Notes: generated from the letters alone by a model not told the origin. Numbered from the stretch's first letter, positions 1 to 43,719 are shown. The stretch is 43,719 bases of DNA from a virus (IMGVR_UViG_3300030382_003089:1-43719); one strand, 5' to 3'. Numbers and translations: made by a program.

Positions 1-2
1 CC

Positions 3-2075
3 TGTCCAAAAACCCATAGTATCGCCAGAACTCTCTTTGATATAAGTATTTGATCCCGAATCAAAATATACTGCCTTACCTGAAGTCACCATTATGTTGT
101 CATTACACTGAATACTCCCAGTAAAAGTATTCGTACTAGCACCAGACACAGCTATTACTCCAGCAAATGTAGCGTTGCCATCTGATGCAATAGTCAATTT
201 GGGCGTAGTGGCAATACACAACTTATGGGAATCGGCTCTGTATTCCATAGATTCAAAAGCACCCCAACCAGTAGTTTGAACATCCATAATTAATGCACTA
301 TTACTGGTTGTCAGTGAAAATAATGCATTTGTACCATCATCAAATACTACATATTTACCACTGTCTGAACCTGTTGTCGTTATTTTTCCAGCAAATGTGG
401 CGTTTTTACCCTTATCAATAGTAAGGGCAGTTGCAGGTGCGCCATCATCTGCTACTCCAAATTCAATTTCTCCTCTTCTTGACGCATTATCTTCTTTGCT
501 AAATTTTATATAACCAGCAGATGCATTAGTACCTCCGCTATGGTCAACATTATAATAATGATACATATCCGATGCATTGCCAGACCCTTCAGCACCGTAT
601 GATATTACGTCCCCAGCAAATGTGGCGTTGCCAGTTACAGTTAGTGTATCATCAACAGTTGCATGACTTCTAAATTTTACATAATCTTCACTGCCCGACC
701 TCCACCAATCTGCCATAAACTGACCATCAGCATATAACTTTAAATCTCCACTAGCTTTTAATGACCTATCTCCCGTCATTTCTATATCACCAGCAAATGT
801 GGCGTTTTGGGATGTGTCAAGGGTGAGAGCAGAGCCACTTCCACCAGTTCTGAAAATCAATTCATCAGATGTATTTGTAAATATCGCACTAGTATCTGCA
901 TTATCTGCATTATTACGCATCCAAATTGCATTATCATTTCCAATGTGTACATTACCACCAAATGTGGCAGTTCTTGTACCACTTACAATTAAATTTTCAG
1001 AAATAGTAACTGGCCCATTGTGTGCAACACTTATTCTTGTTGAATTATTAGTAAATATTTCAAAAGCATGAGTTGTATGTGTCCCAACTTTTCCAACAGT
1101 ATCATCAGCTTGAAACTTACCAGTAACTGTATTCGTTGTATCGGTAACTCTAAAACTTGGACTCCCCGATGCAGATACATATACATCTCCAGCAAATGTG
1201 GCTGAGCCAATTCCGCCAGCACTGTTACCAAGTAGTGTTAAATTGGTAGTAAAAGCATTATCAGTTCCTCTCTGTTGAAATAACAAAGAACCACCACTAT
1301 CAATAATCTTCCAATCAGTGTAGCTATCATTTGTCGCTCCTCTTCTAAAAGTAATAGAAGGAGAATCTGATGTTGATTGTTCTAAAGATATATCACCAGC
1401 AAATGTGGCTTCACCATCTTTTGTTAGAGTAAATACAGTTGCTAATGTTGCAGAGCCACCAGCATCACCATGTGCCGTTGTAGCTTGGTGGTATAAAGAA
1501 CCATCAGCAGGACTGAAATATGTCCTTGCCCCATACTTGTCTGTTCCTTCAGCATATTTCTTTGCCCCTGTATCATAAGTATTCCACCAAATACCTTTTA
1601 CTCCAGTATCAGATGCAATAGACATACCATCTGCTACCTGTAAAACTTTGTACTGACTTTGCCAACCATAGAGAGTTGTACCGTTACCAGCAATTTCCCC
1701 ACCAAATGTCCAAGTACCAGTACCAGTATTAACTATATTATTCTCACCACCAATATTAATAGTAGTCCCATCCATGTTAATTATTTGTTCTTGACCGCTT
1801 CCACCTTTTATTGAGTAACCATTGGCTACTATTAAGTGGCTATTGGATGATAGTATACCAGAAAATGCACCAGTAGTACCCGACAACCCTCCTGTAAGCG
1901 TACCACCAGCTAGAGGTAGGAATTCTGATCCTACTTGCGATAGAGAACTCGCAGCAGTAGAACCATCACCTATGTATAGTTTACTTGTTGAACTATTCCA
2001 TACAGGTTCTCCAGCCGCTGGAGTGCCAGCGTTACTAAGATCAGTTCCCCTCTTTATCTGTAAGGTATTAGCCAC
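3..2075 (-). CDS. Long modular tail fibre / receptor-binding protein, N-terminal part plus module series A (runs off the left end; missing from the ORF track)
   Basis: GTG at 2075 overlaps the upstream TAG. The frame is open to the window edge: MANTLQIKRGTDLSNAGTPAAGEPVWNSSTSKLYIGDG... (Mtd_N-like attachment motif QIKRG..GEP...KLYIGDG), then G/S/T/N-rich modules ending in xATFAG. Confidence 0.9.
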   Translation of the reverse strand, partial: MANTLQIKRGTDLSNAGTPAAGEPVWNSSTSKLYIGDGSTAASSLSQVGSEFLPLAGGTLTGGLSGTTGAFSGILSSNSHLIVANGYSIKGGSGQEQIINMDGTTINIGGENNIVNTGTGTWTFGGEIAGNGTTLYGWQSQYKVLQVADGMSIASDTGVKGIWWNTYDTGAKKYAEGTDKYGARTYFSPADGSLYHQATTAHGDAGGSATLATVFTLTKDGEATFAGDISLEQSTSDSPSITFRRGATNDSYTDWKIIDSGGSLLFQQRGTDNAFTTNLTLLGNSAGGIGSATFAGDVYVSASGSPSFRVTDTTNTVTGKFQADDTVGKVGTHTTHAFEIFTNNSTRISVAHNGPVTISENLIVSGTRTATFGGNVHIGNDNAIWMRNNADNADTSAIFTNTSDELIFRTGGSGSALTLDTSQNATFAGDIEMTGDRSLKASGDLKLYADGQFMADWWRSGSEDYVKFRSHATVDDTLTVTGNATFAGDVISYGAEGSGNASDMYHYYNVDHSGGTNASAGYIKFSKEDNASRRGEIEFGVADDGAPATALTIDKGKNATFAGKITTTGSDSGKYVVFDDGTNALFSLTTSNSALIMDVQTTGWGAFESMEYRADSHKLCIATTPKLTIASDGNATFAGVIAVSGASTNTFTGSIQCNDNIMVTSGKAVYFDSGSNTYIKESSGDTMGFWT
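160..1409 (-). repeat. Seven copies of the 14-17 bp module-junction site (AAC)GCCACATTTGCTGG
   Basis: Plus-strand ccagcaaatgt(g/a)gc starts at 160, 388, 613, 790, 1189 and 1396, with a one-mismatch copy at 955. All are in the same frame and orientation. Confidence 0.95.
1188..1282. repeat. 95-bp exact direct repeat of the contig end (43625-43719)
   Basis: tccagcaaatgtggctgagcc...ctctgttgaaata is identical in both places. Confidence 0.97.
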
Positions 2076-2980
2076 TAGTAAGTGCCAGCATCAATAGTAC
2101 ATGATCCTAAAGTAGCACTTGTTAAAGTAGATGCTGTTACATCATTCCAGGATGAACTTCCTAAACTTCCTGAGAATACTTCAGATGTATTCGTAGCATT
2201 TGGAATAAATTTAAACCTAAAACCATCACTGTCATCCATACCAAAAAATCCTACTTTAGCTGAAGAATCAAAATACCTGAATTCTATACCGCGATCCTTA
2301 CCATCATCGCTTCCAGGGGCAGTGTCTCCCCCTAAAGTGAAAATTGGGTCATCAATTGTAACTGTGGTGCTATTAACTGTCGTTGTGGCCCCATTTACTG
2401 TGAGTGTCCCTGCAATCGTGACATTAGTTGGAAGGCCAATCTGTACCTGATTTCCCGATACAGCAGTTTCAATTTCATTGGCAGTTCCTGCTATTGTAAA
2501 TGTTTCCCCTAGATTAACAGCATCATTAGTTCCACTGTCTGCTGACATGGTAATAGATGAATTAATAAGTTTTCCATTTGCTATGGAACCATTTAACATA
2601 TCATTGGTGATACCACTAGCCTTTACCCTTAAGGCATCATTATATGTTTCAATAGATGATCCATCAACACCAACAGAAAGAACATGACTTGATAAAGCTA
2701 GGCCATCACCAGCTACATTACTGTTTAGCGACAAGGTGTACCCATTATTGTTTGCACTACCAGAGTCTGCAGCTAAAGTAAAACTTGTAGAATTAGCAGA
2801 AAAATCTGTTAACATTGGTAAGTGGTAGGCTTCGACTGTACCCCCACTATTGTTTTCACGGCCTATGTATAATTTCTTACTACCCTGGGCAATCGCGAAT
2901 TCACCAGCCACTACCTGGTTATCCGCTGGGGCAGTAGTACCATTATAGGCACTTCGTTTAATTTTAATTGTATTAGCCAT
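2075..2980 (-). CDS. Short tail fibre / fibre-associated structural protein (301 aa)
   Basis: N-terminus MANTIKIKRS...GEFAI...KLYIG is paralogous to the neighbouring fibre N-terminus. G/S/T-rich, with a LTVNGATTTVNSTTVTIDDPIFTLGG fibre motif. Confidence 0.75.
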   Translation of the reverse strand: MANTIKIKRSAYNGTTAPADNQVVAGEFAIAQGSKKLYIGRENNSGGTVEAYHLPMLTDFSANSTSFTLAADSGSANNNGYTLSLNSNVAGDGLALSSHVLSVGVDGSSIETYNDALRVKASGITNDMLNGSIANGKLINSSITMSADSGTNDAVNLGETFTIAGTANEIETAVSGNQVQIGLPTNVTIAGTLTVNGATTTVNSTTVTIDDPIFTLGGDTAPGSDDGKDRGIEFRYFDSSAKVGFFGMDDSDGFRFKFIPNATNTSEVFSGSLGSSSWNDVTASTLTSATLGSCTIDAGTY

Positions 2981-2999
2981 ATATTTTACCTTTTAGTTA

Positions 3000-3344
3000 T
3001 TAACTATAATCTCCACCATCTATTGTTTTATTAGTTACGCTTTGTGATCCAGCAATAGTTACTACATCAGTAGTGCTGGACCCGCCAAATGTTACCCCAC
3101 CTATCTGGTTAAGTTCTGCTGCAGTTGCCGATACTAATGTACCATTCAACTGTAGCCCATTACTGGAACCATCATGGGATGATATATTCATACTCGTTGT
3201 ACTTAACTGGATCGGAGCCGCGACCCCATCGCCATCAAATACTGTTTTTAAAGTAGCTTCCAACCCTTCATTGTCATCACCATCATAAACTGTTAGTAAA
3301 TCTTTGAAGGTAGTTGCTGGTGCTTTTCCGCTTAAACTAGCCAT
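3000..3344 (-). CDS. Small virion/tail-associated protein (114 aa)
   Basis: GGAG RBS, G/S/T-rich, ATAAELN and NKTIDGG motifs typical of phage fibre proteins, located in the fibre cluster. Confidence 0.6.
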   Translation of the reverse strand: MASLSGKAPATTFKDLLTVYDGDDNEGLEATLKTVFDGDGVAAPIQLSTTSMNISSHDGSSNGLQLNGTLVSATAAELNQIGGVTFGGSSTTDVVTIAGSQSVTNKTIDGGDYS

Positions 3345-3418
3345 ATATATTCTCCGCTATTGTGAAAATATTTGATTATTATAACTTGTTCACAAATGGA
3401 TTCACTGATTTTCATGTT

Positions 3419-6400
3419 TTATTGTGATCGCCTGGTTGATCTAGATTTTTTCTTTTTCTTACGCTTTTTAAAATCTATTGGATTTATACCTTTTGATCTC
3501 CTTTGGTTCTGCAGGAAATCCCTTATAATTCTAGGGACCATGCGACCATAACCATCATCTACCGATTCTGCTTGTTTTTTAGAAAGCTGTCCTGCTCTTA
3601 TAGCATCCCACACATACCTTTTAAATCTTGCTGTCTCAACATGGTTGTATGTTGTGATCTTAGAATATTCAATCATTTCATAAATAAGTCTTTTTTCTGC
3701 CGCTGCAGTTTTATCTGGTTCACCCAGAAATTGTCGTATAAATGGTACATCTTTCTTTGGTGTAGGCTCTCCTTTTAAGAAGTTCATTCCTGTCTTAATT
3801 GATCTTTTAATAAATTTTCCAAGACCACCACCTATAAATTCAAACGCATGATCTAATGTTATAGGATTAACATCAATCCATCCATCTGTGTACTGGTCTT
3901 TTGGTCTACCAAATTCATCCTTACCGCTTCCCTTACCTTTATGTATTTCACCACCCTTCTTCCAGGGAAAATTCAGTTGTGCAAGATATTGTGTAACCAT
4001 CCTTGAAACCCAGCTTGGTGGATTTTTATGGTAATAGTTGGCCCAATCTGGGACATTTCTTGGTCCAAAAGGATTTTTCGCTGGGTACAATGGTGCTTCT
4101 GTAAACTTTTTTCCTTCATATATTTGAGCAGGAAAATCAAGTAATGATGGTGCTACTACCTGTAACGGAGTACCATCGCCAAACGGACTGAATGCATTAT
4201 TAGCAGCAGTTAATATCCTACCCAGTATCACACCATAATCGATATCCTTAGGGTCCGTTCCTTTAATAATAGATTCAGCTACCAGTTCGCCAGTAATTGT
4301 TGCGATAGTATGGAATATGTTTAAACCATATGGAAGTGGATAGCGTATATCATTGCCATCGGGTTTCATAATAATAAAGTAATGATCTCTTTCCCACCAT
4401 GCTTTCTTTTCCCATTCATCTGGTGCCGTTAAAGCGTTTTGGATCGCTATACCCATAGATGCAGCCATAGGGCTGGATAGTAATAGCATTGTTCTTGTGC
4501 GAGTTTCTTTCTTGAAGTTAGAAGCTAACCTAAAGCCACCCTGGACTGTTGCATTCCAGAACCAATAGGCACCATTAAACTGCGAACCCCACTTACCTTT
4601 TTTATTAAAGTTAACTGTTACATTTTTAGCTTCTTGTGCTGCTCTATCTTTACTAATACCTTCATTAACCAGTGTATCATATGTGGCCAGCCTAACACCA
4701 GACTCTATAGCCTCATTAATATCTGACATCAGATTAAATAATGCTTTCCCTAGCTTTTTAATATTTAACGCACTTCTTTCTGTATCTTTTAATTGACTTT
4801 CCAGCTTTAACATATGCTCTTCATAGTTGTCCATATCAAACCAGCCGACTCTTCCACCTTTTGATTTCAGTTCATCGTACTTCTTGGACCATTTGGTAGT
4901 CTTTTCTTTGTGCCTTGCGCTACGCCAAACTCCAGGGACAGCACTGGGAACTTTTGCCAATACTTTTGCTGTTGTTTTTAGGGGATATTTTACTGCTACA
5001 TTAAATAGTGCTGTTGGAACATCACGGAAAAAGTTCTTCCATACAAAATCTAAGTTTAATGTGATAAGCATATTTTTGAAATATGAGTTTAAATTGGTCA
5101 TAGCTTTTGGCCAGTTCCAATTGAGTCCTACATTCTTCAATCCTTCAAGTAAAGGAATGTCGTTTATTTCAATTAAATAAAGTTTCCCATTTCTACGGAC
5201 CGCGAATTCATTGTCCTGTATTTTAAATCGTGGCTCCATATATTGTATTTCACCATACTCATCAAATACTGGTTTAAATCTTTGTCTCCTTACAGTCCAG
5301 GCTTCACTTTCAAATTCTTCAGCTATATCAAGAAACTTCTGGCCAGCAACATTCTTACCTGCTCTTACAATTATATTTTCAAGTTCTATTAATGCAGAGA
5401 ATACTGGATTATATCTTTTCCTAGTTGACCCCTTGGCTCGTTTTATTTCCAGGCCACCAGGCATACTTAATCCCTGGCCTGTACTTGATGACCTATTTTC
5501 TACATCAAGGATAGCGAACAAGGGAACATAATTATCGTAGTATCCAGTTAAATGATCAAATGTCTTTTGCTCTATTAACCCAGCAGCAAGCCTTTCTCTT
5601 AATGCTCTCCTGGTAACCTTCTCGTAAAATTCTTCAGCAAAAGCCTCAATCAGTTTATCGCCCTTATGTTCAGCAATAATTTCTACCCACTCATCTTTAA
5701 ACATACCTGATCCACCATCAGGCATATCATCCCTGATCTTGGCTATATGATCATTTCTTTCCTCCGCATGCCTGGCGTATAAATATTTACCAAATTCTTC
5801 AATAGTATAACCAGCTTTAACAACTCTAGCTAGTAGCGACTTTTTGCCTTTTATAATGTTCCAATTAAGTATATTAATCTTATCTAATGAAGCAGTGGGA
5901 TATAACTCTGCTGCCCTATACGCATCTTCTTCATCAGATAAAGGTCGAACTTCTTCAACCTTTTTCATTACATGACCTAAGCGATTTAATGAGTCCTGCA
6001 TATTTCGCTGCCACAATCGTGGTCGCGATTCAGGATCAAGTTCTAATGGTCTGGTTGCTTTTGTTTTGGGTTTAGATACTAACCGCTTGGGTCGTACCTG
6101 GTAAGCTACTTTTTCTTGAGGCTTTTTAGCTTGTTTAGGTTCTTTAGCTTTTTTACCCCTTCGAGCATCTTTTTTGGTGGGTACTTCTTGTAGAAGCTGT
6201 CCAGGTCTTCCTGAATCATCGCTTCTTCGTTTAACGAGTTCTCTTGCTTCAATTTCATAGTTTGTTTCCTTTTGCCCACGAATAGTTCCTACTTCAAATT
6301 TAGCATATAATCGCTTTTCAGGGAACCAAATAATGGCCTGGGCATCAGCCACTGTAAGGCCCCTTATTTTAGATTTTCTTACTGCTTCTTTCATTACAGC

Positions 6401-9400
6401 CCTGAAAAATATTCTTTCTTGTGCCGTTGGCTGTATATGTAATTCAAATCTATTCATCAGAGTATTTGAAGCCATATTCAACTTGGTTTTAGGTATAAAA
6501 GTTTTTGGCTTTTTAGTTTTTGGGTCTAGTTTACTCTTAGCGTATTCACTTTGAACTTTCTTTGCTACGCTTAACATCTTTGCTTCATCTTTTAAATCTT
6601 TTGCCGTGACCCCATATTTCTTCATCATGGCTTTACTTCTTCTCAGCATAGATACAAATCTTTTTAACTGAACTGAATAATCTTTTCCTTCATCAAGATT
6701 GCCCCTGAGTCTTCCCATTAGCCTCATAAACCAACGATCCATAGTAAGGTATTCAAAATGGCCGTTTACATTAGCCATAAATCCACCTCCAACCTTCGGC
6801 CCAAATACAACAGAACCCATCACCACTTGATCTGCAAGTTCACCGCCCTGGGGTAATCCAGCTTTTTTCAAATCCCTGGCAGTATATTTAGTATTTATAA
6901 AATCATGGACCCATTCTACACCATGATCATTAACTAAATCATTGTAGAACTTGTGGCCTTTTTCCATTGCTCTTCTTTCTTTTCCACCTCTCTTTAGCTT
7001 CTCAGGTAGAATGCCATTCTCTCTCCAAGACTCATAAGAAGTAATAGCGAAGTCTAGATTGTCTTCAACAGCAGCCCCATTGCTTCTTATTGCTAATGTG
7101 ATTTTAAATACCTGGTTATGGATAGGGTCGCTTTTCAGTTCAGGATAAATTTTTGCTAGATGATCTATGGCTTCAGCCATCTTTTTACCGTACCAGCCTA
7201 TAGCATTTTTTTCGTTTTTATATTCTTCTTTTATTTCCTGGGATATTATATCAGATAAAATGTCTCTTACTTCATCAGTGTTTTGTGTTAGGTCTACACC
7301 TAAATCTTTTGCAATAGCTGCTGCTCTTTTATCTAAATACTCTGCTACAGCATTCATATCAGCTAACTTTTCAATAGGTATATTCTGTAAAGATAAGTCT
7401 TCTTTCTTGCGGACCTGGAATAATGGCTGACCTTTTTCCATCACACCCTTCTTCATCTGGCCAGATATTTGCATTGCTGGCTGTGTACTAACTCTTGGCC
7501 CTACAGCTTTCTTCTGGGATTCTCTAGCCTTTTGAATATAATATGACATAGAAATATTTGGATTATATATCCAAGCTGGAATTTGATAAGCTGGGTTTTT
7601 TTCTAGTTCCGTTGCTACATCATATACTTCTTTAATGTCTTTTTCTGACGGCTTTTCTTGCTCATCAACTGGTGACCACCCTTGTGCCAGTTGAGTTGCA
7701 TTGAACAATGCTGCTGCATCAATCTTAGGAAATATGCCCTGGTCACCAGACAGTTCAATTTCCTTAACCCTGACACCCCAGTTGTTCCGTTTAGCCATCT
7801 TATTTAAAGCACTTGGTATTGCCTTATCATAGACCAGCTTATGAAGCTGTCCACCAATAGCTAGATTACCTCCCTCAATTGAACCAGTCCTTTTCTTATC
7901 ATCCCTAATCTTGTTGGCCATTCTTTTGCCAATTAATCTATCAAGAGTTACCTTGGTGCCATTAATCATGGTTTCACCCTCTAGGGGGACAGACTGGTGG
8001 AATACACTCTTCTTATCCTTGATTCCATTTATAATAACAGATTTACCCTCGGCCCAGATACGCTTCATAGCAGGATCAGGATAAAGTGATTCCCATTGTT
8101 TCCTTGATTCCATATCCATCCTTCCCCAAGCATCACCTCTTTCAAACCTTTCATACCATTCCTGTCTATAATAATCATCAGGTGAAAACCTTATATCTAA
8201 CCAGACATCTATTTTGTCTCTAGGAGTATCTCTAGGTATTTCTCGATCAGCCAATAGATCAGTTGCATTTTTATATCCTTTAACTTTTGGCTTCTGCCAT
8301 TGTATTGTATCAAGGTTCTGCCTCAAGTTGCTCTGCCAGCGATCTATCTGTTGTGCAGCAGTTGTCCAGGCTATAGCATCCATATCATTCTCTGCAGCAT
8401 ATCTTAACATGCGTTTCATTACCAGTTCGATCCAACCTGTACCCTTGAATGGTGCATCAATAACTTTGCCCCTCATATCAATTCTTACAGCCTCTTTTGC
8501 TGCTTCTAAATTTTTATAGTCCCTGTTTCTTGTTTTATATATAGGAGTACCATCTTCCCATTTATCATGGGTTAAAAGTTTTATAACAACTTCACCATTC
8601 TCATTTTCCCACTGCGTTCCATCCACTAAATCTACTTTATTAAATGTTACAGGATCAGTTCTATAACCTTCTCTTGCTCCTTCCTGGTGCCAATCAGATT
8701 GTATCTCTTCTATAAATAAAACTTTTTTATCGTCAACAAGTCTGGTATTAAACCGTACATGGGCCATGACATTTGATTGTTTCCAGTGTGTCCCAGTTTC
8801 TTTCCCAAACCCTGGAAGAGTTAACAACAGTTCAGTGTAATCACCAACTTGATGATCACCTTCTAGTTGATGCTCAGAATAACTGGTAGATGTTCCTTCT
8901 TCTAATTCAAATTCAAAATCATCTGTTTTAACACTGTGTATTAATTGTTCTAAATAATCTATTCTTTTATCTGCATCAGAAATTCTCTCCTGAGCTTTAC
9001 GCTCCACTTGCTGACTATCAAAATAATGCCTGGTTCCCCAATGTTCTTTATTTAATTTCTCTTCATTCAGGGTCCCATCTAAATGCATAAGAATTCTGCT
9101 TTGAACAGTCATCCGTAACCTTCCACTCAATTCCCATTTTTTTAGTTCAAAATTTTCTATTAACGACATTTTCAGATTCTCTACAGGGTCCATTGGATCA
9201 AATCTAGTATAATCTACAAGTTCATTATCTCTATATACCTCAAGGTCCCCCACTCTAAATTTTACCTTGTCAGGCATATCGGTGTATTTCACATCTTCAA
9301 CTTTAATATTATGTATATTTATGGCCAGTAGAAGTTGTGCCTTAGTAACCTTCCCATGTTTTTTAATTGCTGGAGTTTCAAGTATTTTATCTATGTCCAA

Positions 9401-12400
9401 CCATTTCAGTTCCTCTGGTTTCACCTGGTTCTTTAACAACCAGTTTTTAACTGATGATATTTTCATACTCTCAGGGAATTTGTCCTGGACAACTTTCTCT
9501 GCCTGGGAAAAGAATGTTGGTTTCGTTTTTCCACGGACCTGGTGCATGATCTTCGGCCCCTTGGTGGGCTTGAGATTGAACTGGCCTTTTATTTGGTTAG
9601 GATTGAAGGTTATAAAAATTCTACCATCACTACCAGATTGCCATATATCTTCACTAGCTATAATTCCATCAAAGCCTTTATCTTGTAATATTTTTTTTAA
9701 GGCTTGATTGTTATCAAAATAATGATATAAAGAATTTTCCTCATAAACTTCATCTAATGCTTGTGCTTCAAGTTCTTTCATTGTGCCATCATAATTAGGC
9801 TTTAAATCTTCTTGAATATTTAAAGCAGCATCTGCTGCAATATCTTCATTTTCTGCTTGTGTTAACTGCCAATTTTTAACACCTTTCTCAATCATTGCAG
9901 CTTCGATAAAAGTTATAAATTCATGGAAATATCTCTTACTACCAAGGTCTAGAACAATGTCTTCATGTGTAAGGTCTAAGGGGTTTTTTATATTTAGATA
10001 TACTGGATATACTTGCCCACCCTCTTCAGTACCAGGTTCTTTTGAACGGCCCCTATGGTCCCTGGCGTAAAAATTGGCTGTTTGAGGGTCTAAAGTAAAG
10101 AAATTCAGAGGGTTTTCATCAAATGCTTCTATATCTTGAATGGTCCCATGATATGCTACTGCTGGCTGCCCCTTATCATCCACTACCTTACTATCTCCGA
10201 ACCAGGACTTGAATTCTTTACTCTTAGGTTTGGCCTTTAATCGCAGATCAGCTTTTCTAACCTGCATCATCTTCTTCTGTTTTTTATTAAGTGGTTTTAC
10301 TGGTCCAGTCTTTTCTCCAAGTTTTCTTATACCTGCTCTTTTATATATGTCCTGTATTTTCTTTGGGACCTTTGCTCCGCGAAGTTTTCTTATCCTGTTA
10401 AATAATGCAAACATCGCCTCTTTTGCATTCTCAAATATCTTGCGTATACCCGCAGCTTCTTCGTGCATCTTTTCACTAAAGAAAAAGTCTCTACCTTCTT
10501 GCCCGAAATGTTCTTCACTGGATCGGGTGTCACCACTTTTGTCGTGGTATGCATCCCATGCTTGTCGGTCTTTTGCATCCATATTGTTGAGCCAGAATTC
10601 GTGGTACCATTCTTCGATAAGGGTGTCCGCATCGTGACCCTTATATAACTGGACCGCTGTTTTGGCGATACCCTTTTGAATATTCGGTGGGAGTGTTGCA
10701 CCGAGTCCTTGGATTCTTCCTTCTCCTTCTTGCTCTTCATATGCTACTCCTTCTAGCTTATACCATTCCTCTGGCTCCATTCCGTATTCTTCTCTGATAA
10801 ACTCATCAGTTACCCAGTTCACCTCATTACTAATTTCTAGTGATGCCTGAGAATCAAAGTCAGGATTATTTTCTAATAAATGTTTTGCTAATACTCCAAC
10901 CCCTTCAGTTGTTTCACCTGCCTCTATTGCAGCATCAACCTCATCCATTGCCTTTTCTTGATGTTTACGAGTAACCTTTAATTGGGCTGGCTTACCAAGG
11001 GATACTTTTCTTCCTTCCTTATCAACACCAGCTACACCTTTAGGGCTTAAACTTGCTACAGCTTCAGCTTCCTGTACAGCCTCATCTACCTTTTCACCTT
11101 CTTCTTCTTTAACCTTATCTAATACCCTACCTGCAGCATAACTCCCTCCAGGTATAACACTGAAAGCAGCCAGTTCAGCTACCGATTGTTTTAAAAAATC
11201 TTCACTTGTATAATCAGGCAATGGGTCCCCAGTACCGATCCCAGGGGTAGCGCGGCCTAGTTCTGCAACTCGTTCTTCAAAGTATTCATTAACCATACCA
11301 TGCCAGCCAACCTTTTCGACATGCTTCTTAAATAAATCATTACTACTACCAGGGAATTTTTTATGCCACCATTTCATAAGCGATGTCCTGGCCACTGCTT
11401 CCTTCACTGGTTTACCAGCTAACTTAAACGCTCCACCAGTACGCTCAGATACCATCTCTATCCACATACCTTTTGTGGCCTTAATTAAAGCCTCACTAGC
11501 TGAATCCCCAGGTCCCGCAATTATTAATTCTTCTTCTTCATTCAGCGTTACACCAGGCATCATACGCTGCAATGCTTCTGCTGGAATTCTAGTGGCACCT
11601 ACTGGTACAGCCTGAACTGAGGCACCAGCAGTAACGCCTATAGCTTCCCTTGCTATTTTACCAGAAGTTTTTTCAGTTGTAAATTTTGCTAACTTTTCTT
11701 TACCTTCTTTTGTAAGCAGTTTCTTTAATGTTGCTTTAGCAGTTTCTGTAGCTGCTTTCCTAACCCCAGTATATATACTACCAGTAAAACCTAATTCTAA
11801 TATAAACGAAGGTAGGCCATGAAGAATATCAAGAATCATATACCCCAGGTTTTTATCTGCCTCAGCATGGTCCACATATTCTTGTAATATTTTTAATTGT
11901 TCTTCACTAGCAGTACCATCTCCCAAGGCATCAGCAGCAACAAGCAATGTTCTCATTTCACCAACATCTACAATACCAGATATGAATGGTAATATTTTTC
12001 CTAATCCTTGCCAGGTACCTATCTCAGCCACCTTATCCATAAACCCTAAGGTAGATACAGGTTTTTTCTTCTTTTTTCTATTTTCCTGGGCTGCTATCGT
12101 TGCGGCTGTAGATAAAGAATAATCCCCATTCTTTTGCAGCTTAGTTATTGTATTAACAGTATGAGGCATACTGGATACGAGTGTTTCTAAACTGTCATTA
12201 ATATCATTATAATTCTTTTGTTTAATTTTTAATTGATCAGCTTTTTTAAATGTTTCTTCTACAGCACCCTTTCCATCATCAATAGTCTGCTGAACTTTAG
12301 ATCCATTTTTAGTATCAACAGACTGACCGTTCTGTTCAATATATCTATTCGGATGATCATCATGTTTATATTGTGAATCCCAATGGTATTGCCCATCACC

Positions 12401-15407: not shown

Positions 15408-15975
15408 GCTCGATCTCCATTTTATTTATTTCTATATCATTTGACGATGTAGATGACGATACCTCTACTGCCATATATTTTGCTCTTCTTCCAATTTTGA
15501 AAGAATCGTATGGATAATTTGCATAATGAATAGTGACTCCAGAATTGTGGATAGCTGCTGTCGTGCCACGCATTCCTCTCTGGACTCTATGGAATGCTGG
15601 TGCAGTATCCCCAACATCCACTATTTTCATAATTTCTGAATCAGCTTTTATCCAATCTCCACTTTTTAATGATCCGACTGATGCTGTCATTAATATCGTA
15701 TCAGTTGCAGAATTCCAACCTACAACAGTAGTTGTTAACCCAGTTGATCCATCATTTGCTCTCAGAGTAACTGTCTTTACTGGATTGGTACTATCTCCGT
15801 CTACATAAACCTTCACTGTAATATCATCACCACTTTTATACCTTGCATTAATTCTTCTTACAAAAGCACTCCTGGATAAATCTTGTGATATAGAAAACCA
15901 TCCAGTCTTTCTTAATGTTGACAATGTTTCGCTTTCAGTGGTCGGATTAAATTCTCTTATCTTTGCATTACCCAT
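15391..15975 (-). CDS. Stand-alone tail nozzle C-terminal-like domain with an inserted beta domain (194 aa)
   Basis: IREF..RKTGW..RRINARY..VYVDGD..KIGRRAK..IE aligns by eye to the C-terminus of the 730-aa neighbour. The insert GDWIKADSEIM..VQRGMRGTTAAIH is a recurring phage structural motif. Confidence 0.6.
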   Translation of the reverse strand: MGNAKIREFNPTTESETLSTLRKTGWFSISQDLSRSAFVRRINARYKSGDDITVKVYVDGDSTNPVKTVTLRANDGSTGLTTTVVGWNSATDTILMTASVGSLKSGDWIKADSEIMKIVDVGDTAPAFHRVQRGMRGTTAAIHNSGVTIHYANYPYDSFKIGRRAKYMAVEVSSSTSSNDIEINKMEIEHEYNA

Positions 15976-30263: not shown

Positions 30264-31532
30264 ATGAGTACTATTTACATAAAAGATAAATACTACTATT
30301 ATGCTCATGGTAGAAAAGGTAGACCTGGCTATATTAAGCCAGAGACAACCAGTATTTCTGTTGTTCAGTTTGGTAAGAGAGAGGCTGAAAGATTAGCCAG
30401 AGAATATCAAATAAAAAGAGATAGCCAGAGGATTAATATTAAAAATGGCAATCCTGATATTATTGATGTTTCCCACTTACCTGCTGATATCAAATTAGAG
30501 ATACGCAGTATCATTAATAACTATACTAATGGTACAATCAATGAGCAAGCTGCTGCGACTGGGACTATTGTTCACAACAAGGTCCAGGACCTGATTAAAT
30601 CAAAGACTTATGAAGAGATTCGTAATTCTTGGTTAAAGGGTGTGAAGGCTCGCGGCACTACACCAACAAAGAAAAGAGTAAAAGTAACTGAGGGTTGGTT
30701 AAAGAAAGAACAAACCTATTATAATGTATTCTCTTCTTTCGTTGGTAAAGACACTCTGATTAATAACATAAGCCTTGAAGTGGTTCAGAACTTCATTGAC
30801 CAGAAGAGTCTTGAAGGCAAGTCAGGTTCAACGATAGCCAAGTATCTGCAAACAACTGGCATGATATTTGATTACGCTATTAAGCATAAATACTATCCAA
30901 AAGAGGATGGTAATCCTACAAGTTCAGAAAATGCTTATAGACCTGATACAATTGCCAAAAGGCGATATGTGATCTTACCGCATGAAGTAGTCAATAAAAC
31001 CATAGCTGAAGCGAATGATGAGGATAAAATATTCTGGACATTCCTTAAGCATACTGGATTAAATCCTGCTGACATTAGCAGCTTAACTCCAGATATGGTT
31101 ATAGAGCGTACTGGACAAAGTGGTAAGAAGGTCAAAGCTATAGTTAAATGGCGTAATAAGACTAGAAGCAGTGCCAAGAAGCCAGTATACATTGTTCTAA
31201 ATGATGCAGTACACAATGTCCTGGATACATACGGCAAGAAATGCTTTGGACTGTACCCCACAAGAAACGAGCAGTACAACTCAACCGAGAGATTCAAGAC
31301 AGCGATAATAAAGCAAGGCCATAAGACTGAAGATGATCTCAAGACTGAGATATTCTCTCTTGGTTGTCTTAGGCATTCCAACTTCACTTATCGCAGGATA
31401 GATAGTGATGCCAGTTTAGAGGAAATAACTCATGTATCTGGCCACAACTCAACGGAAATGCTCACTGATTGTTACATTCAGGATGTGAACTGGGACCGTG
31501 AGTTAGAACTAGCTAACGCGATAGATAAGTAG
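30264..31532 (+). CDS. int: Tyrosine recombinase/integrase with atypical catalytic motifs (422 aa)
   Basis: SAM-like core (STIAKYL....IFDYA), HTGLNPADI, WRNKT, GCLRHS, SGH..EM...Y. Confidence 0.85.
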   Translation: MSTIYIKDKYYYYAHGRKGRPGYIKPETTSISVVQFGKREAERLAREYQIKRDSQRINIKNGNPDIIDVSHLPADIKLEIRSIINNYTNGTINEQAAATGTIVHNKVQDLIKSKTYEEIRNSWLKGVKARGTTPTKKRVKVTEGWLKKEQTYYNVFSSFVGKDTLINNISLEVVQNFIDQKSLEGKSGSTIAKYLQTTGMIFDYAIKHKYYPKEDGNPTSSENAYRPDTIAKRRYVILPHEVVNKTIAEANDEDKIFWTFLKHTGLNPADISSLTPDMVIERTGQSGKKVKAIVKWRNKTRSSAKKPVYIVLNDAVHNVLDTYGKKCFGLYPTRNEQYNSTERFKTAIIKQGHKTEDDLKTEIFSLGCLRHSNFTYRRIDSDASLEEITHVSGHNSTEMLTDCYIQDVNWDRELELANAIDK

Positions 31533-35914: not shown

Positions 35915-36208
35915 CTAGAAAGGTAATTTATCCGCAGGTTTTACTGTTTTCGCAGCATAACCTGAAGATTGATAACTTCCTTGACTCTTTTGGCCGTCTT
36001 CAGTTGGTTCCCAAAGGCTAACCTTAGTATACTTGGTGCCAGTTTTTTCTGACACTTTCGGATACAGTCTACCTTTTAGGATTTTCCCACCAACATTAAT
36101 CGTAATGTTTCCAGCATAATTTGTATCTTTATTGTCTGGATCACCATTGGGATCATAATCTTCATTATGAAATATGGTCCCAGTATTCGGCTTATGTTCA
36201 TACGCCAT
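35915..36208 (-). CDS. Putative single-stranded DNA-binding protein (97 aa)
   Basis: NTGTIF..N, YAGNI, beta-rich core, flexible tail ending LPF. Next to the exonuclease. Confidence 0.6.
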   Translation of the reverse strand: MAYEHKPNTGTIFHNEDYDPNGDPDNKDTNYAGNITINVGGKILKGRLYPKVSEKTGTKYTKVSLWEPTEDGQKSQGSYQSSGYAAKTVKPADKLPF

Positions 36209-37157
36209 TGGTTTTGTTCTCCTTTCTGTAGAGATTAAAAGATGAGCGAGGTTCCATTTTTAACCTTGGTACTACATCACCTTTACTGTTTGTATTTTCC
36301 GCAAACCAAAGCCTGGCCGCGTTAACAAATGATTCATAGTCAACCTTCTGATAGTCTAACTTATAAGTAGGCTCAGTGCGATACGCATCAGTTACATAAA
36401 GACTGGCTATATAATCTATCTTATGCATTGGATATTCCATATCCCAACCAGTTTTATAGGCAGCGTTCTGAAGGGCATGGGTCCAGTACTTTCCACCAGT
36501 CTTTAGATCAACCAGCACCAGGCTATTCTTTTTACTGTTCTTAGCCTTTTTCATACTAAGGATCATATCCAGCCTACCAGCAAATCTGAGTTCCGCATTA
36601 TATATAGGATACTCACAAGCTATTGGTGTAGGATTATGTTCTTTCCAAAATGCCACAAACGACTCCAGGTATCTTCTAATAGACATAGAAAATGCCGCCT
36701 CAGTGCCATATGAATACCGCCAAGCCTGATCTTCTTCATTCTGTATTAAGTCTCTTATATCCTGAGCCATTACTTTCTCGCCTTCCACTAAAGCCTTCAT
36801 CCAGTAGTGAACATGGTTACCGCGTATAGCTGCAGCATCCCTGACTTGTGGGGCCAGATGGCCATAGTTGCGGTTCCACTGATTAAACCCATGACCCTTA
36901 TGCAGTATTGATAATAATGTAGTAACACTAGGCCGCCAGTTATTAGTGTCGTTATCACCAACTAAATGATAAAACCTGCCATTACTCAGGTCTTTGTTTG
37001 TGATATGCTGAGTTTCTCGCATTAGTTCTGGGCCAGTGTCAATTTCAGTAGCACCATTCTTTTCTATTTTAAAGCCCTGGGCCGTTAAGGCTTCAATGGC
37101 CTTATCGAGATCAAGACCTTCAAATATTGGTTGCTCTTCTACTTGTTTTTGTGACAT
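36198..37157 (-). CDS. PD-(D/E)XK recombination exonuclease (319 aa)
   Basis: PSVTTLL, RGNHVH, E.PIY, FAGRLD, VDLKTG, LQNAAY. Confidence 0.85.
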   Translation of the reverse strand: MSQKQVEEQPIFEGLDLDKAIEALTAQGFKIEKNGATEIDTGPELMRETQHITNKDLSNGRFYHLVGDNDTNNWRPSVTTLLSILHKGHGFNQWNRNYGHLAPQVRDAAAIRGNHVHYWMKALVEGEKVMAQDIRDLIQNEEDQAWRYSYGTEAAFSMSIRRYLESFVAFWKEHNPTPIACEYPIYNAELRFAGRLDMILSMKKAKNSKKNSLVLVDLKTGGKYWTHALQNAAYKTGWDMEYPMHKIDYIASLYVTDAYRTEPTYKLDYQKVDYESFVNAARLWFAENTNSKGDVVPRLKMEPRSSFNLYRKENKTNGV

Positions 37158-40338: not shown

Positions 40339-40375
40339 GATTTCTCCTATTGTTTATTGTTAATTAAATTTTTCA

Positions 40376-43300
40376 TTATGCGTTCTCCAGTGCTTCTATT
40401 CTCTGCATAGCTTCTTGCAATGCTTTTATTGCCTTCATATACAAAATTGAATATTTCAGAACTTTCATTGTCATATCCTCACCATCCTCATCCTTCTTTA
40501 CAACCCATTCTCCATCTTCATTTTGCTCACCAAATCCACACTGTTCTAGTTCATATTGAGTAGGGGGAACTTCTTTGATTAAAGAAGGTGAAACTAATTC
40601 TACTTCTTGTGCTATTGCTCCTAAAAATGTTTCTGCATCTTCACCATACGCTGCAACAGCACTCTTGTATTTGAAATTTCTAACTCTAATATTTTTAATA
40701 TCATCCCATTGAGAATTAGCATCTTCAATATTGGTTTTTATTCTTTCATCTGAAAATGCACCATAACTGTTAGTTCTACTATTTACATCACCATTATTAC
40801 GAACTATAAATTTCCCTTCGGTAGAATCTGCATTATAAAAACTCCACCCTTGATTATTTGGTGATGCCTGACGATAATGTATAAACAAACCTTCAGGGGT
40901 AGAACCTCCGCTATAATCAGAATTAAATCTTATCATGCCAGAACCACTCACAGCATCATTAAATACTTCTAATGCTGTTGCTGCGTTCTCTGGTGGGCCA
41001 CCAATGCCAATAACACCATTCTTATCAATCTTCATTGCCAAATGGTCAGAAAATTCTGCTATGAATAATGGCGAACCAGAGGCATGACCTACTGTACCTC
41101 GATTGCCTCCATTTTTAACATGAAGTATTCCATCTGCCGTGGTATAGTTATCGCCTAACATAGCCAAACACATTCCACCTCCGCTTGGCGTTGTTCCTCC
41201 AGAATTAGATGCAGCGAAATTCCATCCTGACCTTTCTCCAGCATTCCCTACAGATGAACCTTCTGCGGAAGAAACTTTCCCAGCAAATGTGGCGTTTTGG
41301 GAAGAATCGAGTAATAATGCTTGAGTTAAAGTCTTAGAGGCATTAGCTGTATAAAACCTCATTTCACCTCGACCTGCTGTTTCTGATGTCCAATCATGGT
41401 CAAATGTAATTTTACCGATTGTATTTCCTGCATTTGCTCCGTGGTCATACGCAGAAATCATTGCCTTACCATTACCCTGAGTATCACAAGTTATTTCAAA
41501 ATGAGAACTCCAATCAGAAGTTTGTCTCATAAGTGTAAGCGTTCTACCTCCCTGTGAACCTTGGTCAACACTTGTAGTCCCAACAGCCATTTCTGCTTCT
41601 GTATATATATCCCCAGCAAATGTGGCGTTATGATTATGGTCAAGAGTTAAAGCAAGTTGATTACCATTAGTATCTGAATCAGTTCCTGAACCTGGAGATT
41701 TTGTATAGAATTTCATATCCCCACCACCATCAACATTACTATAGTTATTAGATATGTATGAAGTAACCTTTATATATCCTATCGCTTTAGCATCTTGGTT
41801 AGTAGCAACTGAACTATAATTTTTATTATCAACAAATTGAATTTGCGCTATGTCATCTCCGCTTGCAGTACCATGACCTACAATTTCTAATACAGAGGAT
41901 AAACCTTGATGATTTTTAAATGAGTGGTATGATTGACCAGTACCTAAATCTCCAGTCCAAAAAGCACTACTTGAAGTAGTTCCTGCAGATATACTCCCAG
42001 AAAATGTCCCATAACCAGCCGTAATACCTCCAGAAAATACAGCGTTTTGGTTGAGTTTTAGCGATTCGACTACAGTAGAGGGAGCAGTATATGTATATAA
42101 AATTAAATCTCCTCCAACACCAGCATTATAATGAGTGTACTCAGACCTTATTCCTGCTATTCTTTGATTACTCCCCTGTGCAATATTGTTCATAAACTGA
42201 ATTTCAAATCCGCTTCCATAAGCTGCACCATATTTATTAATCAATCTTAATGCTGCATCTGTGTTTGAGCCAGTAGTTGTTTGGTTTTCATCACCTACAA
42301 TAGTCATTCTAGCAGTTGCAGTTCCCCCATCAGAACCTATAAATGCATCACCTAGAGTTACAAAATTAGTATTTGTTTTTAGATCACCAGCAAATGTAGC
42401 GTTTTTACTTGAATCTATGGTTAAAGCATCTTCACCATCCGATACTTCAAGAACAAGACTATCTGTTGCCCCAACACTATTTATTCTCATTTGACTATTC
42501 GCATCATCTGCATGAAAGTCTAAACCTGTATCACCAGCGCCTCGGAATGCCGCAACATGAATATTTGTACTTGTTTGGTCTACATAAAGTAAATAATTTG
42601 AATTCCCTTCAATATGCAACTGATGATTCGGGTTTGATTTATTAATACCAACATGACCCCCAGTTTCAATCCACATACGACCTGTACCACCAGCAAATAA
42701 ACATAAAGTGTGAGCAGACTTTGTCCCAAACCCATCATTGCCTGAAGTGGCTATATAACTTGCTACTTCTCTTGTTCCATCTGAATGAAGGAATCCATAA
42801 TTGTTAGCTATGGTACTTTTTACTTGTCCAGTAGATGTAATTGCTCCTGAACCTATTGTACCAGCAAATGTGGCTGATTGGTCATCCTTATCTATTGTAA
42901 CGGCAGTTGTATTATTAGTTTGAAGTATTAAATGAGCATCTGTATTAGTAGTCCCAAGTGTTAAGCCGTTGTTTCCAGATAAAAATGAATTGGCAAGAAT
43001 AGTACCTCGCAATGATGCACCATTATACAACTCAATCTTACCATTACCACCGCCACCCTTTATCTTAACATTGGGATGTCCACTGCCATCATAAGCCTCA
43101 AAATGGGTATTTCCATAATCTCCAGTGCTAGTGCCAGTTGCTTTAAATCCGCTAGTTGTTCCATTTTGATGAACTTGCCCAGTAAATGTGGCGTTTCCAT
43201 TACTTTCTAATTGCAGTTTGTAACCAGTAAAATTCCCATCATTGGCAGTATCAATGGTAAAATTCCCCGAACTATTTTTTAACTGCCAATCGCCATAATC

Positions 43301-43717
43301 TGTATGTGTACGAATTAACTCAATTTTACAATCGTTATTATCAGTTGATTCAATCGTAAATGTATTACTTCCTGCACTTGATAATTTTACATCACCAGAA
43401 AATTTGGATATTCCAGAAGAACCTTCACAATTAAGAATCCAATTCCCTTTACCATCCCCTATACTAAAATCTCTAAACTGTGTAGTTCCACCTTGATACC
43501 CCCTGTAATTAGCCCATCCACCAGTTACTTCATTATCGTGATATCCAAAATTCAATGTATTTGAATTACCACCGCTACTACCAAAGTATGACCCAGCATC
43601 TGAGCCTACTCTAAACTCTACTAATCCAGCAAATGTGGCTGAGCCAATTCCGCCAGCACTGTTACCAAGTAGTGTTAAATTGGTAGTAAAAGCATTATCA
43701 GTTCCTCTCTGTTGAAA
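40376..43717 (-). CDS. Long modular tail fibre, module series B and C-terminal intramolecular chaperone (peptidase S74); 5'-partial
   Basis: The frame stays open upstream of 43555 to the window edge (FQQRGTDNAF...SATFAGLVEF...). C-terminal SDERIKTNI..W..IK..FKYK..GAIAQEV...P and coiled coil. Confidence 0.92.
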   Translation of the reverse strand, partial: FQQRGTDNAFTTNLTLLGNSAGGIGSATFAGLVEFRVGSDAGSYFGSSGGNSNTLNFGYHDNEVTGGWANYRGYQGGTTQFRDFSIGDGKGNWILNCEGSSGISKFSGDVKLSSAGSNTFTIESTDNNDCKIELIRTHTDYGDWQLKNSSGNFTIDTANDGNFTGYKLQLESNGNATFTGQVHQNGTTSGFKATGTSTGDYGNTHFEAYDGSGHPNVKIKGGGGNGKIELYNGASLRGTILANSFLSGNNGLTLGTTNTDAHLILQTNNTTAVTIDKDDQSATFAGTIGSGAITSTGQVKSTIANNYGFLHSDGTREVASYIATSGNDGFGTKSAHTLCLFAGGTGRMWIETGGHVGINKSNPNHQLHIEGNSNYLLYVDQTSTNIHVAAFRGAGDTGLDFHADDANSQMRINSVGATDSLVLEVSDGEDALTIDSSKNATFAGDLKTNTNFVTLGDAFIGSDGGTATARMTIVGDENQTTTGSNTDAALRLINKYGAAYGSGFEIQFMNNIAQGSNQRIAGIRSEYTHYNAGVGGDLILYTYTAPSTVVESLKLNQNAVFSGGITAGYGTFSGSISAGTTSSSAFWTGDLGTGQSYHSFKNHQGLSSVLEIVGHGTASGDDIAQIQFVDNKNYSSVATNQDAKAIGYIKVTSYISNNYSNVDGGGDMKFYTKSPGSGTDSDTNGNQLALTLDHNHNATFAGDIYTEAEMAVGTTSVDQGSQGGRTLTLMRQTSDWSSHFEITCDTQGNGKAMISAYDHGANAGNTIGKITFDHDWTSETAGRGEMRFYTANASKTLTQALLLDSSQNATFAGKVSSAEGSSVGNAGERSGWNFAASNSGGTTPSGGGMCLAMLGDNYTTADGILHVKNGGNRGTVGHASGSPLFIAEFSDHLAMKIDKNGVIGIGGPPENAATALEVFNDAVSGSGMIRFNSDYSGGSTPEGLFIHYRQASPNNQGWSFYNADSTEGKFIVRNNGDVNSRTNSYGAFSDERIKTNIEDANSQWDDIKNIRVRNFKYKSAVAAYGEDAETFLGAIAQEVELVSPSLIKEVPPTQYELEQCGFGEQNEDGEWVVKKDEDGEDMTMKVLKYSILYMKAIKALQEAMQRIEALENA
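41280..43639 (-). repeat. Six further copies of the module-junction site
   Basis: Plus-strand starts at 41280, 41613, 42387, 42861, 43179 (one mismatch) and 43626, with a degenerate copy near 42030. Confidence 0.95.
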
Positions 43718-43719
43718 TA
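43625..43719. repeat. 95-bp exact repeat of 1188-1282
   Basis: Direct comparison. Identity stops at the junction site. Confidence 0.97.

What the first reader, a model, noticed from the sequence alone, without database searches (positions are those of the whole stretch)
160..1409. Tail fibre built from in-frame cassettes joined by a DNA-conserved 14-17 bp site: candidate module-shuffling system
Seen: 13 copies (12 independent) of (AAC)GCCACATTTGCTGG in the fibre gene at 160, 388, 613, 790, 955, 1189, 1396, 41280, 41613, 42387, 42861, 43179 and 43626. They separate otherwise dissimilar modules of 55-258 codons. Conservation is at the DNA level: Thr is ACA in 13/13, Phe TTT in 13/13, the first Ala GCC in 11/13, and Asn AAC in 8/8, although the gene looks A/T-biased at third positions elsewhere. 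The third base of the Gly codon varies freely (A/G/T), marking a sharp edge. The core reads CCA-7bp-TGG, a short inverted pair around an asymmetric 7-bp spacer. Known: shufflons (Rci) and invertase systems (Gin/Cin) use inverted sites, DGRs use a reverse transcriptase, and tyrosine recombinase cores have 6-8 bp spacers. Inference: these direct, in-frame sites act as crossover points allowing modules to be deleted, inserted or swapped between phages, like an integron array inside a single ORF, diversifying host recognition.
Basis: partly seen in the sequence, partly recalled or inferred. Interest (0 to 1): 0.92.

Follow-up and report, generated by a model that had tools for sequence, protein, structure and literature searches.

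The report
Codon-locked swap joints in phage fibres
The tail-fibre gene of this uncultured marine phage is a chain of dissimilar modules joined by one 14-base word spelled the same even at silent codon positions, related phages carry near-identical modules inserted, lost or reordered at that word, and the swapping likely runs by ordinary short-homology recombination rather than by a dedicated enzyme.

Summary
The 13 copies and their codon counts are real. The contig is probably a chimera: 1-1187, with five of the copies, lies at about a quarter of the depth of the rest and belongs to a second fibre sharing one module. The main fibre has 7 sites. In 90 non-redundant ORFs from related contigs the word is fixed at silent positions (GCC 164 of 200 against 9% background). 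Exchange at the word is shown: of 37 pairs sharing a whole module, 19 differ on both sides, with 3 clean one-module indels and 2 order swaps. Crossovers spread over about 30 bases; CCA-7-TGG is no more palindromic than half of all synonymous spellings; an integrase occurs in 1 of 8 near-complete carriers, a resolvase or reverse transcriptase in none. A second, unrelated word (GNVGIGT) is locked in the same genes. Best reading: self-maintaining short-homology joints, extending motif-mediated exchange known from T-even fibres. This scan noted similar joints, with other words, on other DNA. I found no paper on this word.

The parts
1188..2075 (-). 5' part of the main tail-fibre gene: N-terminal anchor plus first module (296 codons)
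   Evidence: ORF; Pfam Mtd_N at residues 6-40, E 2e-5, below its curated cut-off; depth about 20 in X1
40376..43624 (-). 3' part of the main fibre gene (1082 codons), which follows 1188 on the inferred circle; whole fibre about 1378 aa with 7 sites
   Evidence: PHROG tail-fibre hits
40580..40753 (-). Peptidase_S74 (intramolecular chaperone) domain
   Evidence: Pfam PF13884, E 3e-10, over cut-off
43625..43719 (-). 95-bp exact duplicate of 1188-1282: assembly overlap at a branch that ends exactly at the site
   Evidence: alignment
1..1187 (-). Second fibre path (five sites, low depth), probably from another phage that shares the module 1188-1409
   Evidence: depth 4.8-6.3 against about 20 in X1; next to absent from X2
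1188..1409 (-). Module shared by the two paths; the X1 contig piece 1188-1399 ends at both flanking sites
   Evidence: depth 25.3; X5 and X6 pieces end at 1406 with other sequence beyond
1396..1409 (-). joint GCCACATTTGCTGG (main fibre, site 1)
1189..1202 (-). joint (main fibre, site 2; same site as 43626-43639)
43626..43639 (-). joint, duplicate of 1189-1202
43179..43192 (-). joint with one mismatch (ATFTG), main fibre site 3
   Evidence: X1 pieces meet at 43153-43182
42861..42874 (-). joint, main fibre site 4
42387..42400 (-). joint with one mismatch, main fibre site 5
   Evidence: the strongest aligned stretch with P0001 ends at this ATFAG
41613..41626 (-). joint, main fibre site 6
   Evidence: 93.8% over 128 nt with L010, ending at this site; X2 loose end at 41627
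41280..41293 (-). joint, main fibre site 7
   Evidence: loose ends at 41273-41308 in X2, X3, X4
955..968 (-). joint with one mismatch (ATFGG), second path
790..803 (-). joint, second path
   Evidence: loose ends at 786-820
613..626 (-). joint, second path
388..401 (-). joint, second path; the module 160-404 recurs elsewhere between other neighbours
   Evidence: L035 95.5% over 245 nt, site to site; X6 record 18
160..173 (-). joint with one mismatch, second path
41997..42010 (-). degenerate joint (GTFSG, 3 mismatches) inside the 258-codon module
   Evidence: X2 loose end and X4 piece end at 42007
43395..43408 (-). degenerate joint (SKFSG) inside the 149-codon module
30264..31532 (+). tyrosine-integrase-like gene; not linked to the joints across carriers
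   Evidence: phrog_1 E 7e-20
36198..37157 (-). PD-(D/E)XK exonuclease, a candidate general recombination function (role inferred)
   Evidence: phrog_298, PF12705

Best explanation
The word (AAC)GCCACATTTGCTGG is an in-frame joint at which these phages exchange, insert, delete and reorder tail-fibre modules, likely by short-homology recombination between any two copies, with no dedicated recombinase. Shown: the word is fixed at silent positions; near-identical modules sit between different neighbours; identity switches at the word; crossovers spread over about 30 bases around it. Inferred: two phage DNAs in one cell, or two copies in one molecule, anneal over the 10-25 matching bases of two joints, with the help of general functions (phage Sak or Sak4 annealing proteins, exonucleases, or host enzymes). 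All copies share frame and direction and probably mark the edge of a folding unit, so the product is an intact fibre. Modules whose ends match the common spelling can enter more genes, and each crossover overwrites the joint, so the spelling maintains itself against A+T drift. A change of host range is presumed from the gene's identity and was not tested.
For: Silent-site lock: at 200 peptide-defined sites in 90 non-redundant ORFs (one seed site per ORF dropped) GCC 164/200 (background 0.09), ACA 181/200 (0.39), GCT 113/126 (0.41), AAC 103/121 (0.22). Control: in 53 loci picked by protein likeness only, 2 of 47 similar peptides have the exact word, both in one close relative. Exchange: 275 internal modules in 241 clusters; of 37 pairs sharing a whole module 19 differ on both sides, 6 on one side, 12 on neither. 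Sharp junctions found without reference to the site: 29 of 64 3' ends and 24 of 63 5' ends lie at a site in both genes, about 4 expected each. Clean indel: L226 and L270 are 99.2% identical for 919 nt up to a site and 98.9% for 660 nt from the next, with 294 nt extra in L226; two more indels of 255 and 261 nt. Order swaps: L408/L420 (99.2% and 97.9%) and L051/L276 (90.8% and 85.6%). Spread crossovers: in 24 recent upstream-sharing pairs the first mismatch lies from -11 to +21 (10 at or before 0); in 25 downstream-sharing pairs the last mismatch lies from -6 to +18 (7 at or after 14). Silent mismatches are 15/120 at -12..0 and 8/24 at position 3, against 11/384 further inside the module (P 1e-4 and 2e-6). 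No integrase in 7 of 8 near-complete carriers; no resolvase or reverse transcriptase in 19 of 19 records. Annealing proteins differ: Sak in G002, Sak4 in G003 and G006. A second unrelated word is codon-locked in the same genes.
Against: Two unrelated joints share an exact run of only 10 bases at the median and 20 of 33 bases overall. PMC2327257 (passages) gives about 30 bp as the minimum for RecA and Red, and 1e-8 for RecET at 5-13 bp, so the rate would be low. No annealing protein was recognised in the window or in the proteins scanned from G012, G016, G018 and G019 (103 chosen proteins of 351 listed). The identity switch is very sharp at position 15 (1/35 mismatches at 14, 18/35 at 15) and at 0-1, which a site-specific enzyme would also give. 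More than half of the sharp junctions (35 of 64, 39 of 63) are not at this word; 6 and 10 of these, by eye, come from unrelated repeat ORFs. The pairs are not independent, the ORFs were chosen through the DNA word, and several events at one joint can blur a crossover map. Why this particular spelling was fixed is not explained.
Confidence: 0.62

Rival explanations
1. A sequence-specific enzyme, host-encoded or too divergent to be recognised, cuts or recombines at the 14-mer, as in an integron array or shufflon, and later events blur the ends.
For: Sharp edges at positions 0-1 and 14-15; a specific mixed spelling that is not simply GC-rich; natural homology below what general recombination usually needs; clean one-module indels; the window has an integrase and an excisionase.
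Against: No fixed crossover. Palindrome score reached by 51% of 1024 synonymous spellings, and no compensatory pairs in 375 junctions. No recombinase family shared by 17 records plus the window. Integrase in 1 of 8 near-complete records. A second unrelated word behaves alike. A host enzyme could not be tested because the host is unknown.
Confidence: 0.15
2. The DNA word has no causal role: breaks are random, only those at the structural boundary give a working fibre, and the codons are alike by descent from duplicated repeats.
For: The peptide is common in other fibres, and junctions also occur at other boundary motifs. A boundary role for the peptide is plausible, though the structure model was useless (pLDDT 37.6).
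Against: Rare codons (GCC 82% against 9%, AAC 85% against 22%) persist between modules that share no detectable protein similarity, across phages with two different capsid and terminase sets. Descent alone would have erased silent identity first. The same peptide in other fibres uses ordinary codons.
Confidence: 0.13
3. The spelling is kept for a reason unrelated to recombination, such as a translation pause between folding units, an RNA structure, or a Chi-like host signal.
For: The codons are rare and lie at module edges; the word ends in GCTGG, as the E. coli Chi site begins (Chi recalled).
Against: Fold energy is -0.3 kcal/mol, reached by 71% of synonymous spellings. Sub-words of the site and the Chi octamer are not enriched in 721 other coding sequences once codon-pair context is kept (29 against 25.0); the excess came from a cruder null. 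TTT and ACA are common codons.
Confidence: 0.06
4. The swaps are assembly chimeras made at a short repeat.
For: The window itself is probably chimeric through a shared module, so whole-gene order can be wrong in single contigs. Only contigs were available, no raw or long reads.
Against: Unrelated joints share a median exact run of 10 bases, 17 at the 90th percentile, shorter than usual assembly words (general knowledge). A chimera through a shared module needs both junctions to exist already. Alternative architectures recur in several records: L001, L053, L260 against L002, L013, L254. Paired joints often differ inside the 14-mer.
Confidence: 0.04

Closest known systems
Recombination at conserved motifs in T-even distal tail-fibre and adhesin genes, gp37 and gp38 (Tetart 1996, 1998 as cited in PMC3157838; I read passages of PMC3157838, not the originals)
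   Same: Exchanges fall in or near short conserved motifs that separate variable segments of a receptor-binding protein; no dedicated recombinase.
   Different: In gp38, four hypervariable segments lie between five glycine-rich motifs of one small domain. Here one word occurs up to 16 times in a gene, joins whole modules of median 86 codons in any order, allows gain, loss and reordering, and is locked at silent positions. The passages I saw report no such lock.
Conserved DNA motifs around receptor-binding domains of E. coli phage tailspikes (PMC10408124, passages)
   Same: DNA-level motifs shared across phage genera and proposed as recombination hotspots.
   Different: Those are 44, 95 and 20 nt long, 63-81% identical, and flank the single receptor-binding domain; the authors saw no correlation with the number of events. 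Here the word is short, near-invariant and repeated, and junctions map to it.
Relaxed homologous recombination by phage Red-beta / Rad52-like proteins (PMC3945230, PMC2327257, passages)
   Same: Proposed engine: general annealing across short or diverged homology builds mosaics.
   Different: The stated minimum is about 30 bp; the joints here offer 10-25 matching bases. No enzyme was tested.
Integron cassette arrays, Rci shufflons and Gin/Cin tail-fibre invertases (defining features recalled)
   Same: Interchangeable cassettes between repeated short sites; direct repeats as in integrons; a fibre gene as target as for Gin/Cin.
   Different: No linked recombinase, no inverted sites, no hairpin, no fixed crossover; every module is translated within one ORF.

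Membership tests
Motif-mediated fibre exchange (T-even type) | Short conserved motifs separate variable segments of a tail-fibre or adhesin gene | tested here: met
Motif-mediated fibre exchange (T-even type) | Exchange points fall in or near the motifs | tested here: met
   29/64 and 24/63 sharp junctions at the word, about 4 expected each
Motif-mediated fibre exchange (T-even type) | No dedicated recombinase; general recombination does the exchange | tested here: inconclusive
   no shared phage recombinase and spread crossovers; host enzymes not examined
Motif-mediated fibre exchange (T-even type) | Exchange changes host range | not testable with these tools
   uncultured phages; host not identified
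Integron / tyrosine-recombinase cassette array | A linked tyrosine recombinase in carriers of the sites | tested here: not met
   phrog_1 in 2 of 19 records, 1 of 8 near-complete; PF00589 in 1 of 28, below cut-off
Integron / tyrosine-recombinase cassette array | Crossover at a fixed position or within a fixed 6-8 bp spacer | tested here: not met
   crossover bounds from -11 to +21
Integron / tyrosine-recombinase cassette array | Inverted binding arms or attC-like hairpin with covariation | tested here: not met
Integron / tyrosine-recombinase cassette array | Excised circular cassettes | not testable with these tools
   only contigs were served; no backward joint is listed, which is no proof of absence
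Shufflon (Rci) / Gin-Cin invertase | Inverted sites flanking invertible segments | tested here: not met
   all 13 copies on one strand; in each of 16 of 17 records all copies on one strand, the other with none in the part fetched
Shufflon (Rci) / Gin-Cin invertase | Adjacent serine invertase or Rci | tested here: not met
   PF00239 in 0 of 19 records; no recombinase next to the fibre in the window
Diversity-generating retroelement | Reverse transcriptase | tested here: not met
   PF00078 in 0 of 19 records
S74-chaperone tail fibre | N-terminal anchor and C-terminal Peptidase_S74 domain | tested here: met
   PF13884 over cut-off; Mtd_N weak, below cut-off
S74-chaperone tail fibre | Trimeric fibrous structure | not tested
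   single-chain model pLDDT 37.6; no trimer prediction was obtained

The most novel reading that the evidence does not exclude
The 14-mer is the target of an unrecognised sequence-specific recombination or nicking enzyme, supplied by the host or by a helper phage, that lets a community of marine phages with different capsids draw on a shared library of hundreds of in-frame fibre cassettes: an integron inside a single reading frame, with a second enzyme-site pair for the GNVGIGT word.
Probability: 0.15. Interest if true: 0.88.

Novelty: new variant of a known kind. Interest (0 to 1): 0.6.

Why it matters
It shows how a phage community can rebuild a host-recognition protein module by module: one short joint, repeated along the gene and shared by phages with different capsids, gives access to at least 241 module clusters in this small sample. 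It makes an old question testable: whether short conserved motifs in fibre genes are kept because they promote recombination. The silent positions can be recoded without touching the protein. It also explains why several of these phage contigs break inside the fibre gene, and warns that assembled fibre genes can be chimeric, as this window probably is.

Tried and rejected
Fixed-cut recombinase model: rejected by crossover bounds. CCA-7-TGG palindrome or hairpin: not above synonymous alternatives, no covariation; a possible ACATT/AATGT arm pair showed no coupling. Chi-like signal: the excess vanished with a codon-pair null. PF00589 search is insensitive here, since it also misses the window's own integrase, so phrog_1 was used. 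The 17-mer in GTDB genomes gave 38 single matches and no ORF with two sites. Host search led nowhere: no cultured relative above 60% identity and no organism names. Single-chain structure prediction failed (pLDDT 37.6), so no fold search was run; no trimer prediction was obtained. The search of 1.84 billion representatives gave 364 hits at E <= 0.001. The best 150 match only parts of the query; 25 of them hold ATF[AGST]G and 69 hold G[NKR][VI]GIG, so the modules are spread wider than this joint. Runs with small shares that I did not lay were not used as evidence. Earlier-finding searches by sequence and by place found nothing.

Full report
Setting. The window is a near-complete temperate phage genome: P22/SU10-like portal, terminase, major capsid protein, integrase, excisionase, exonuclease and a tail fibre with a C-terminal S74 chaperone domain. 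The runs that hold it are marine. No cultured phage is close, and the host was not identified.

Observation. The 14-mer GCCACATTTGCTGG occurs 13 times with at most one mismatch, all on the minus strand and in frame as ATFAG, ATFGG or ATFTG; 0.01 would be expected by chance. Against the rest of the same gene GCC (7%), AAC (17%), ACA (37%) and GCT (37%) are informative; TTT (87%) is not. No copy with two or fewer mismatches lies outside the fibre.

The contig is probably a chimera, and the chimera is itself evidence. The last 95 bases repeat 1188-1282 and part from it right after the site. In run X1, which may be the source of the window, pieces in 1-1097 have depth 4.8-6.3, the piece 1188-1399 has 25.3, and 1414-1595 and 2031-3400 have 20.4 and 19.8. 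Pieces in 40360-43654 have 18.8-25, one 38.7. The piece 1188-1399 starts at one site and ends inside the next. Run X2, from another study, bridges 43282-43709 with no difference and has next to no cover on 1-1140. I read the main genome as a circle of 42,437 bp with a fibre of about 1378 residues and 7 sites, and 1-1187 as part of a second fibre that shares one module. Contig depth is a coarse measure and no raw reads were served, so this is a strong inference, not a proof. The same runs show more exchange. An X6 contig of 1427 nt matches only 160-404, one module from site to site. An X2 contig leaves the window at 41627 with 30 letters that match 1410-1439 at 26 positions by my own comparison, as if an anchor end were joined straight to site 6.

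DNA-level conservation in relatives. Pattern scans fetched 60, 125, 86 and 80 viral loci, 69 metagenome loci and 38 genome loci. From the first 291 loci and the window, 133 ORFs had two or more in-frame sites and 90 were non-redundant; none came from the GTDB genomes. At 200 sites defined by the peptide ATF[AGST]G, with one seed site per ORF dropped, GCC is 164/200 (background 0.09), ACA 181/200 (0.39), GCT 113/126 (0.41), the preceding AAC 103/121 (0.22) and GGG 109/200 (0.11). These ORFs were found through the word, so the figures lean upward. As a control, 53 loci found by protein likeness to the anchor or the C-terminal part hold 47 similar peptides; only the 2 in one close relative have the exact word, the others differ at 2-7 positions. 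Carriers include two groups with different capsid and terminase sets; one gene has 16 copies.

Exchange at the word. Of 141 BLASTN matches of at least 100 nt and 88%, 38 of 125 internal 3' ends and 24 of 102 internal 5' ends fall at a site in both genes, against about 8 and 7 expected. BLAST runs on into a shared word, so I repeated this by asking only for sharp junctions (95% or more on one side, 55% or less on the other): 29 of 64 and 24 of 63 are at a site, about 4 expected each. The others lie, by eye, at GNVGIG-like motifs, in N-terminal repeats, or (6 and 10 rows) in unrelated repeat ORFs that entered the set; no rows were dropped. Cutting the 90 ORFs at the sites gives 275 internal modules (median 86 codons) in 241 clusters; of 37 pairs sharing a whole module, 19 differ on both sides, 6 on one and 12 on neither. 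L226 and L270 are 99.2% identical for 919 nt up to a site and 98.9% for 660 nt from the next, with one 294-nt module extra in L226. L229/L288 and L102/L437 show indels of 255 and 261 nt. L408/L420 and L051/L276 carry two modules in opposite order. L001, L053 and L260 share one arrangement and L002, L013 and L254 another.

Where the crossover lies. Among 375 distinct junctions, 35 pairs share only the upstream flank and 34 only the downstream flank. Identity switches sharply: 1/35 mismatches at position 14 and 18/35 at 15 in the first group, 17/34 at position 0 and 2/34 at position 2 in the second. No single cut fits. In 24 recent upstream-sharing pairs the first mismatch lies between -11 and +21, in 10 of them at or before 0. 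In 25 recent downstream-sharing pairs the last mismatch lies between -6 and +18, in 7 at or after 14. Silent mismatches in the upstream-sharing pairs are 15/120 at -12..0 and 8/24 at position 3, against 11/384 further inside the module; in the downstream-sharing pairs 5/50 at 15 and 18 and 5/25 at position 3, against 14/400 (P 1e-4, 2e-6, 0.05, 0.003; pairs not independent). Crossovers therefore spread over about 30 bases centred on the word, as expected of annealing over short homology.

No dedicated enzyme. The integrase family matches 2 of 19 carrier records and 1 of 8 that are at least 90% complete; resolvase and reverse transcriptase match 0 of 19. Clustering 870 proteins from 17 records and the window showed no shared recombinase. 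Of 103 proteins chosen from 351 listed for 7 near-complete records, one is Sak-like, two are Sak4-like and several are exonucleases or junction resolvases. CCA-7-TGG scores no better than 51% of the 1024 synonymous spellings and shows no compensatory change. Sub-words of the site are not enriched in 721 other coding sequences. A second word, GNVGIGT, is also locked in the same 90 ORFs: of 83 sites GGC 58, GTC 60, ATC 42, GGG 47, each against 10-12% background. I took that lead from earlier notes of this scan. Two unrelated locked words in one gene family suit a general process better than one enzyme.

Against my reading. Two unrelated joints share only 10 exact bases at the median and 20 of 33 overall, below the roughly 30 bp given for RecA and Red in PMC2327257, which also cites 1e-8 for RecET at 5-13 bp. 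No annealing protein was recognised in the window. A host enzyme cannot be excluded. The structural role of ATFAG is inferred: the single-chain model was useless.

What is known. Exchange at conserved motifs in T-even fibre and adhesin genes is established (PMC3157838, passages; Tetart 1998 not read). Longer, looser DNA motifs around tailspike domains were proposed as hotspots (PMC10408124, passages). Relaxed recombination by phage annealing proteins is described in PMC3945230 and PMC2327257 (passages). I also read passages of bioRxiv 10.1101/2025.05.13.653841, which did not bear on the joints. I read no supplements; the motif alignments of PMC10408124 are in supplements and could bear on how strictly those motifs are spelled. 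Eight full-text searches (listings and abstract starts seen) found neither this word, ATFAG in a phage fibre, nor GNVGIGT; the library lacks most subscription journals. Features of integrons, shufflons, invertases, DGRs and Chi are recalled. Earlier notes of this scan describe similar joints with other words in other phages; they are unchecked and are not used as support.

Verdict. A real and well-mapped module-shuffling joint, a new variant of a known kind: repeated, interchangeable, locked at silent sites, and shared across phage groups. Mechanism most likely short-homology recombination (0.62); dedicated enzyme 0.15. Interest 0.6.

Noticed in passing
90 non-redundant fibre ORFs (e.g. L259, L345, L349, L389, L497): A second codon-locked joint, G[NKR][VI]GIG, n=83: GGC 58, GTC 60, GGC 40, ATC 42, GGG 47, each against 10-12% background; several sharp junctions fall there.
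   Followed up: partly
window 30264-31532: The integrase-like protein lacks the Arg expected in the TG.R box (HTGLNP) and the His of H..R (GCLRH), as do P0005 and the G008 homologue; the catalytic motifs are recalled.
   Followed up: partly
window 3419-12571: 3050-aa polyvalent protein with LPD38 and ART-PolyVal domains.
   Followed up: no
window 37290-37847: Phage-borne peptide deformylase fused to a SEC-C motif; 306 relatives at E <= 1e-30, none with an organism name.
   Followed up: partly
window 15968-18160: 730-aa protein with an N-terminal Ig-like domain followed by many imperfect acidic repeats of the type D.T.F.E.
   Followed up: no
window 42861-43192: An X1 piece covering 42903-43182 has double depth (38.7) and branches inside site 43179-43192, so another abundant genome in that run probably shares this module.
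   Followed up: partly
G002 (L515) and G007 (L541): Three separate ORFs in one record carry the word, so exchange between paralogous fibre genes is possible.
   Followed up: no
L391/L392 9933-9968: Two copies of the 18-base word only 18 bases apart, a tandem duplication of the joint itself.
   Followed up: no
G003 (L019, L045) and other records: Several carrier contigs begin or end inside the fibre gene, as the window does.
   Followed up: no
L021, L276, L372 (G004): A 132-kb record whose fibre joins collagen-like repeats to modules bounded by the word, including the two modules that stand in opposite order in L051.
   Followed up: partly
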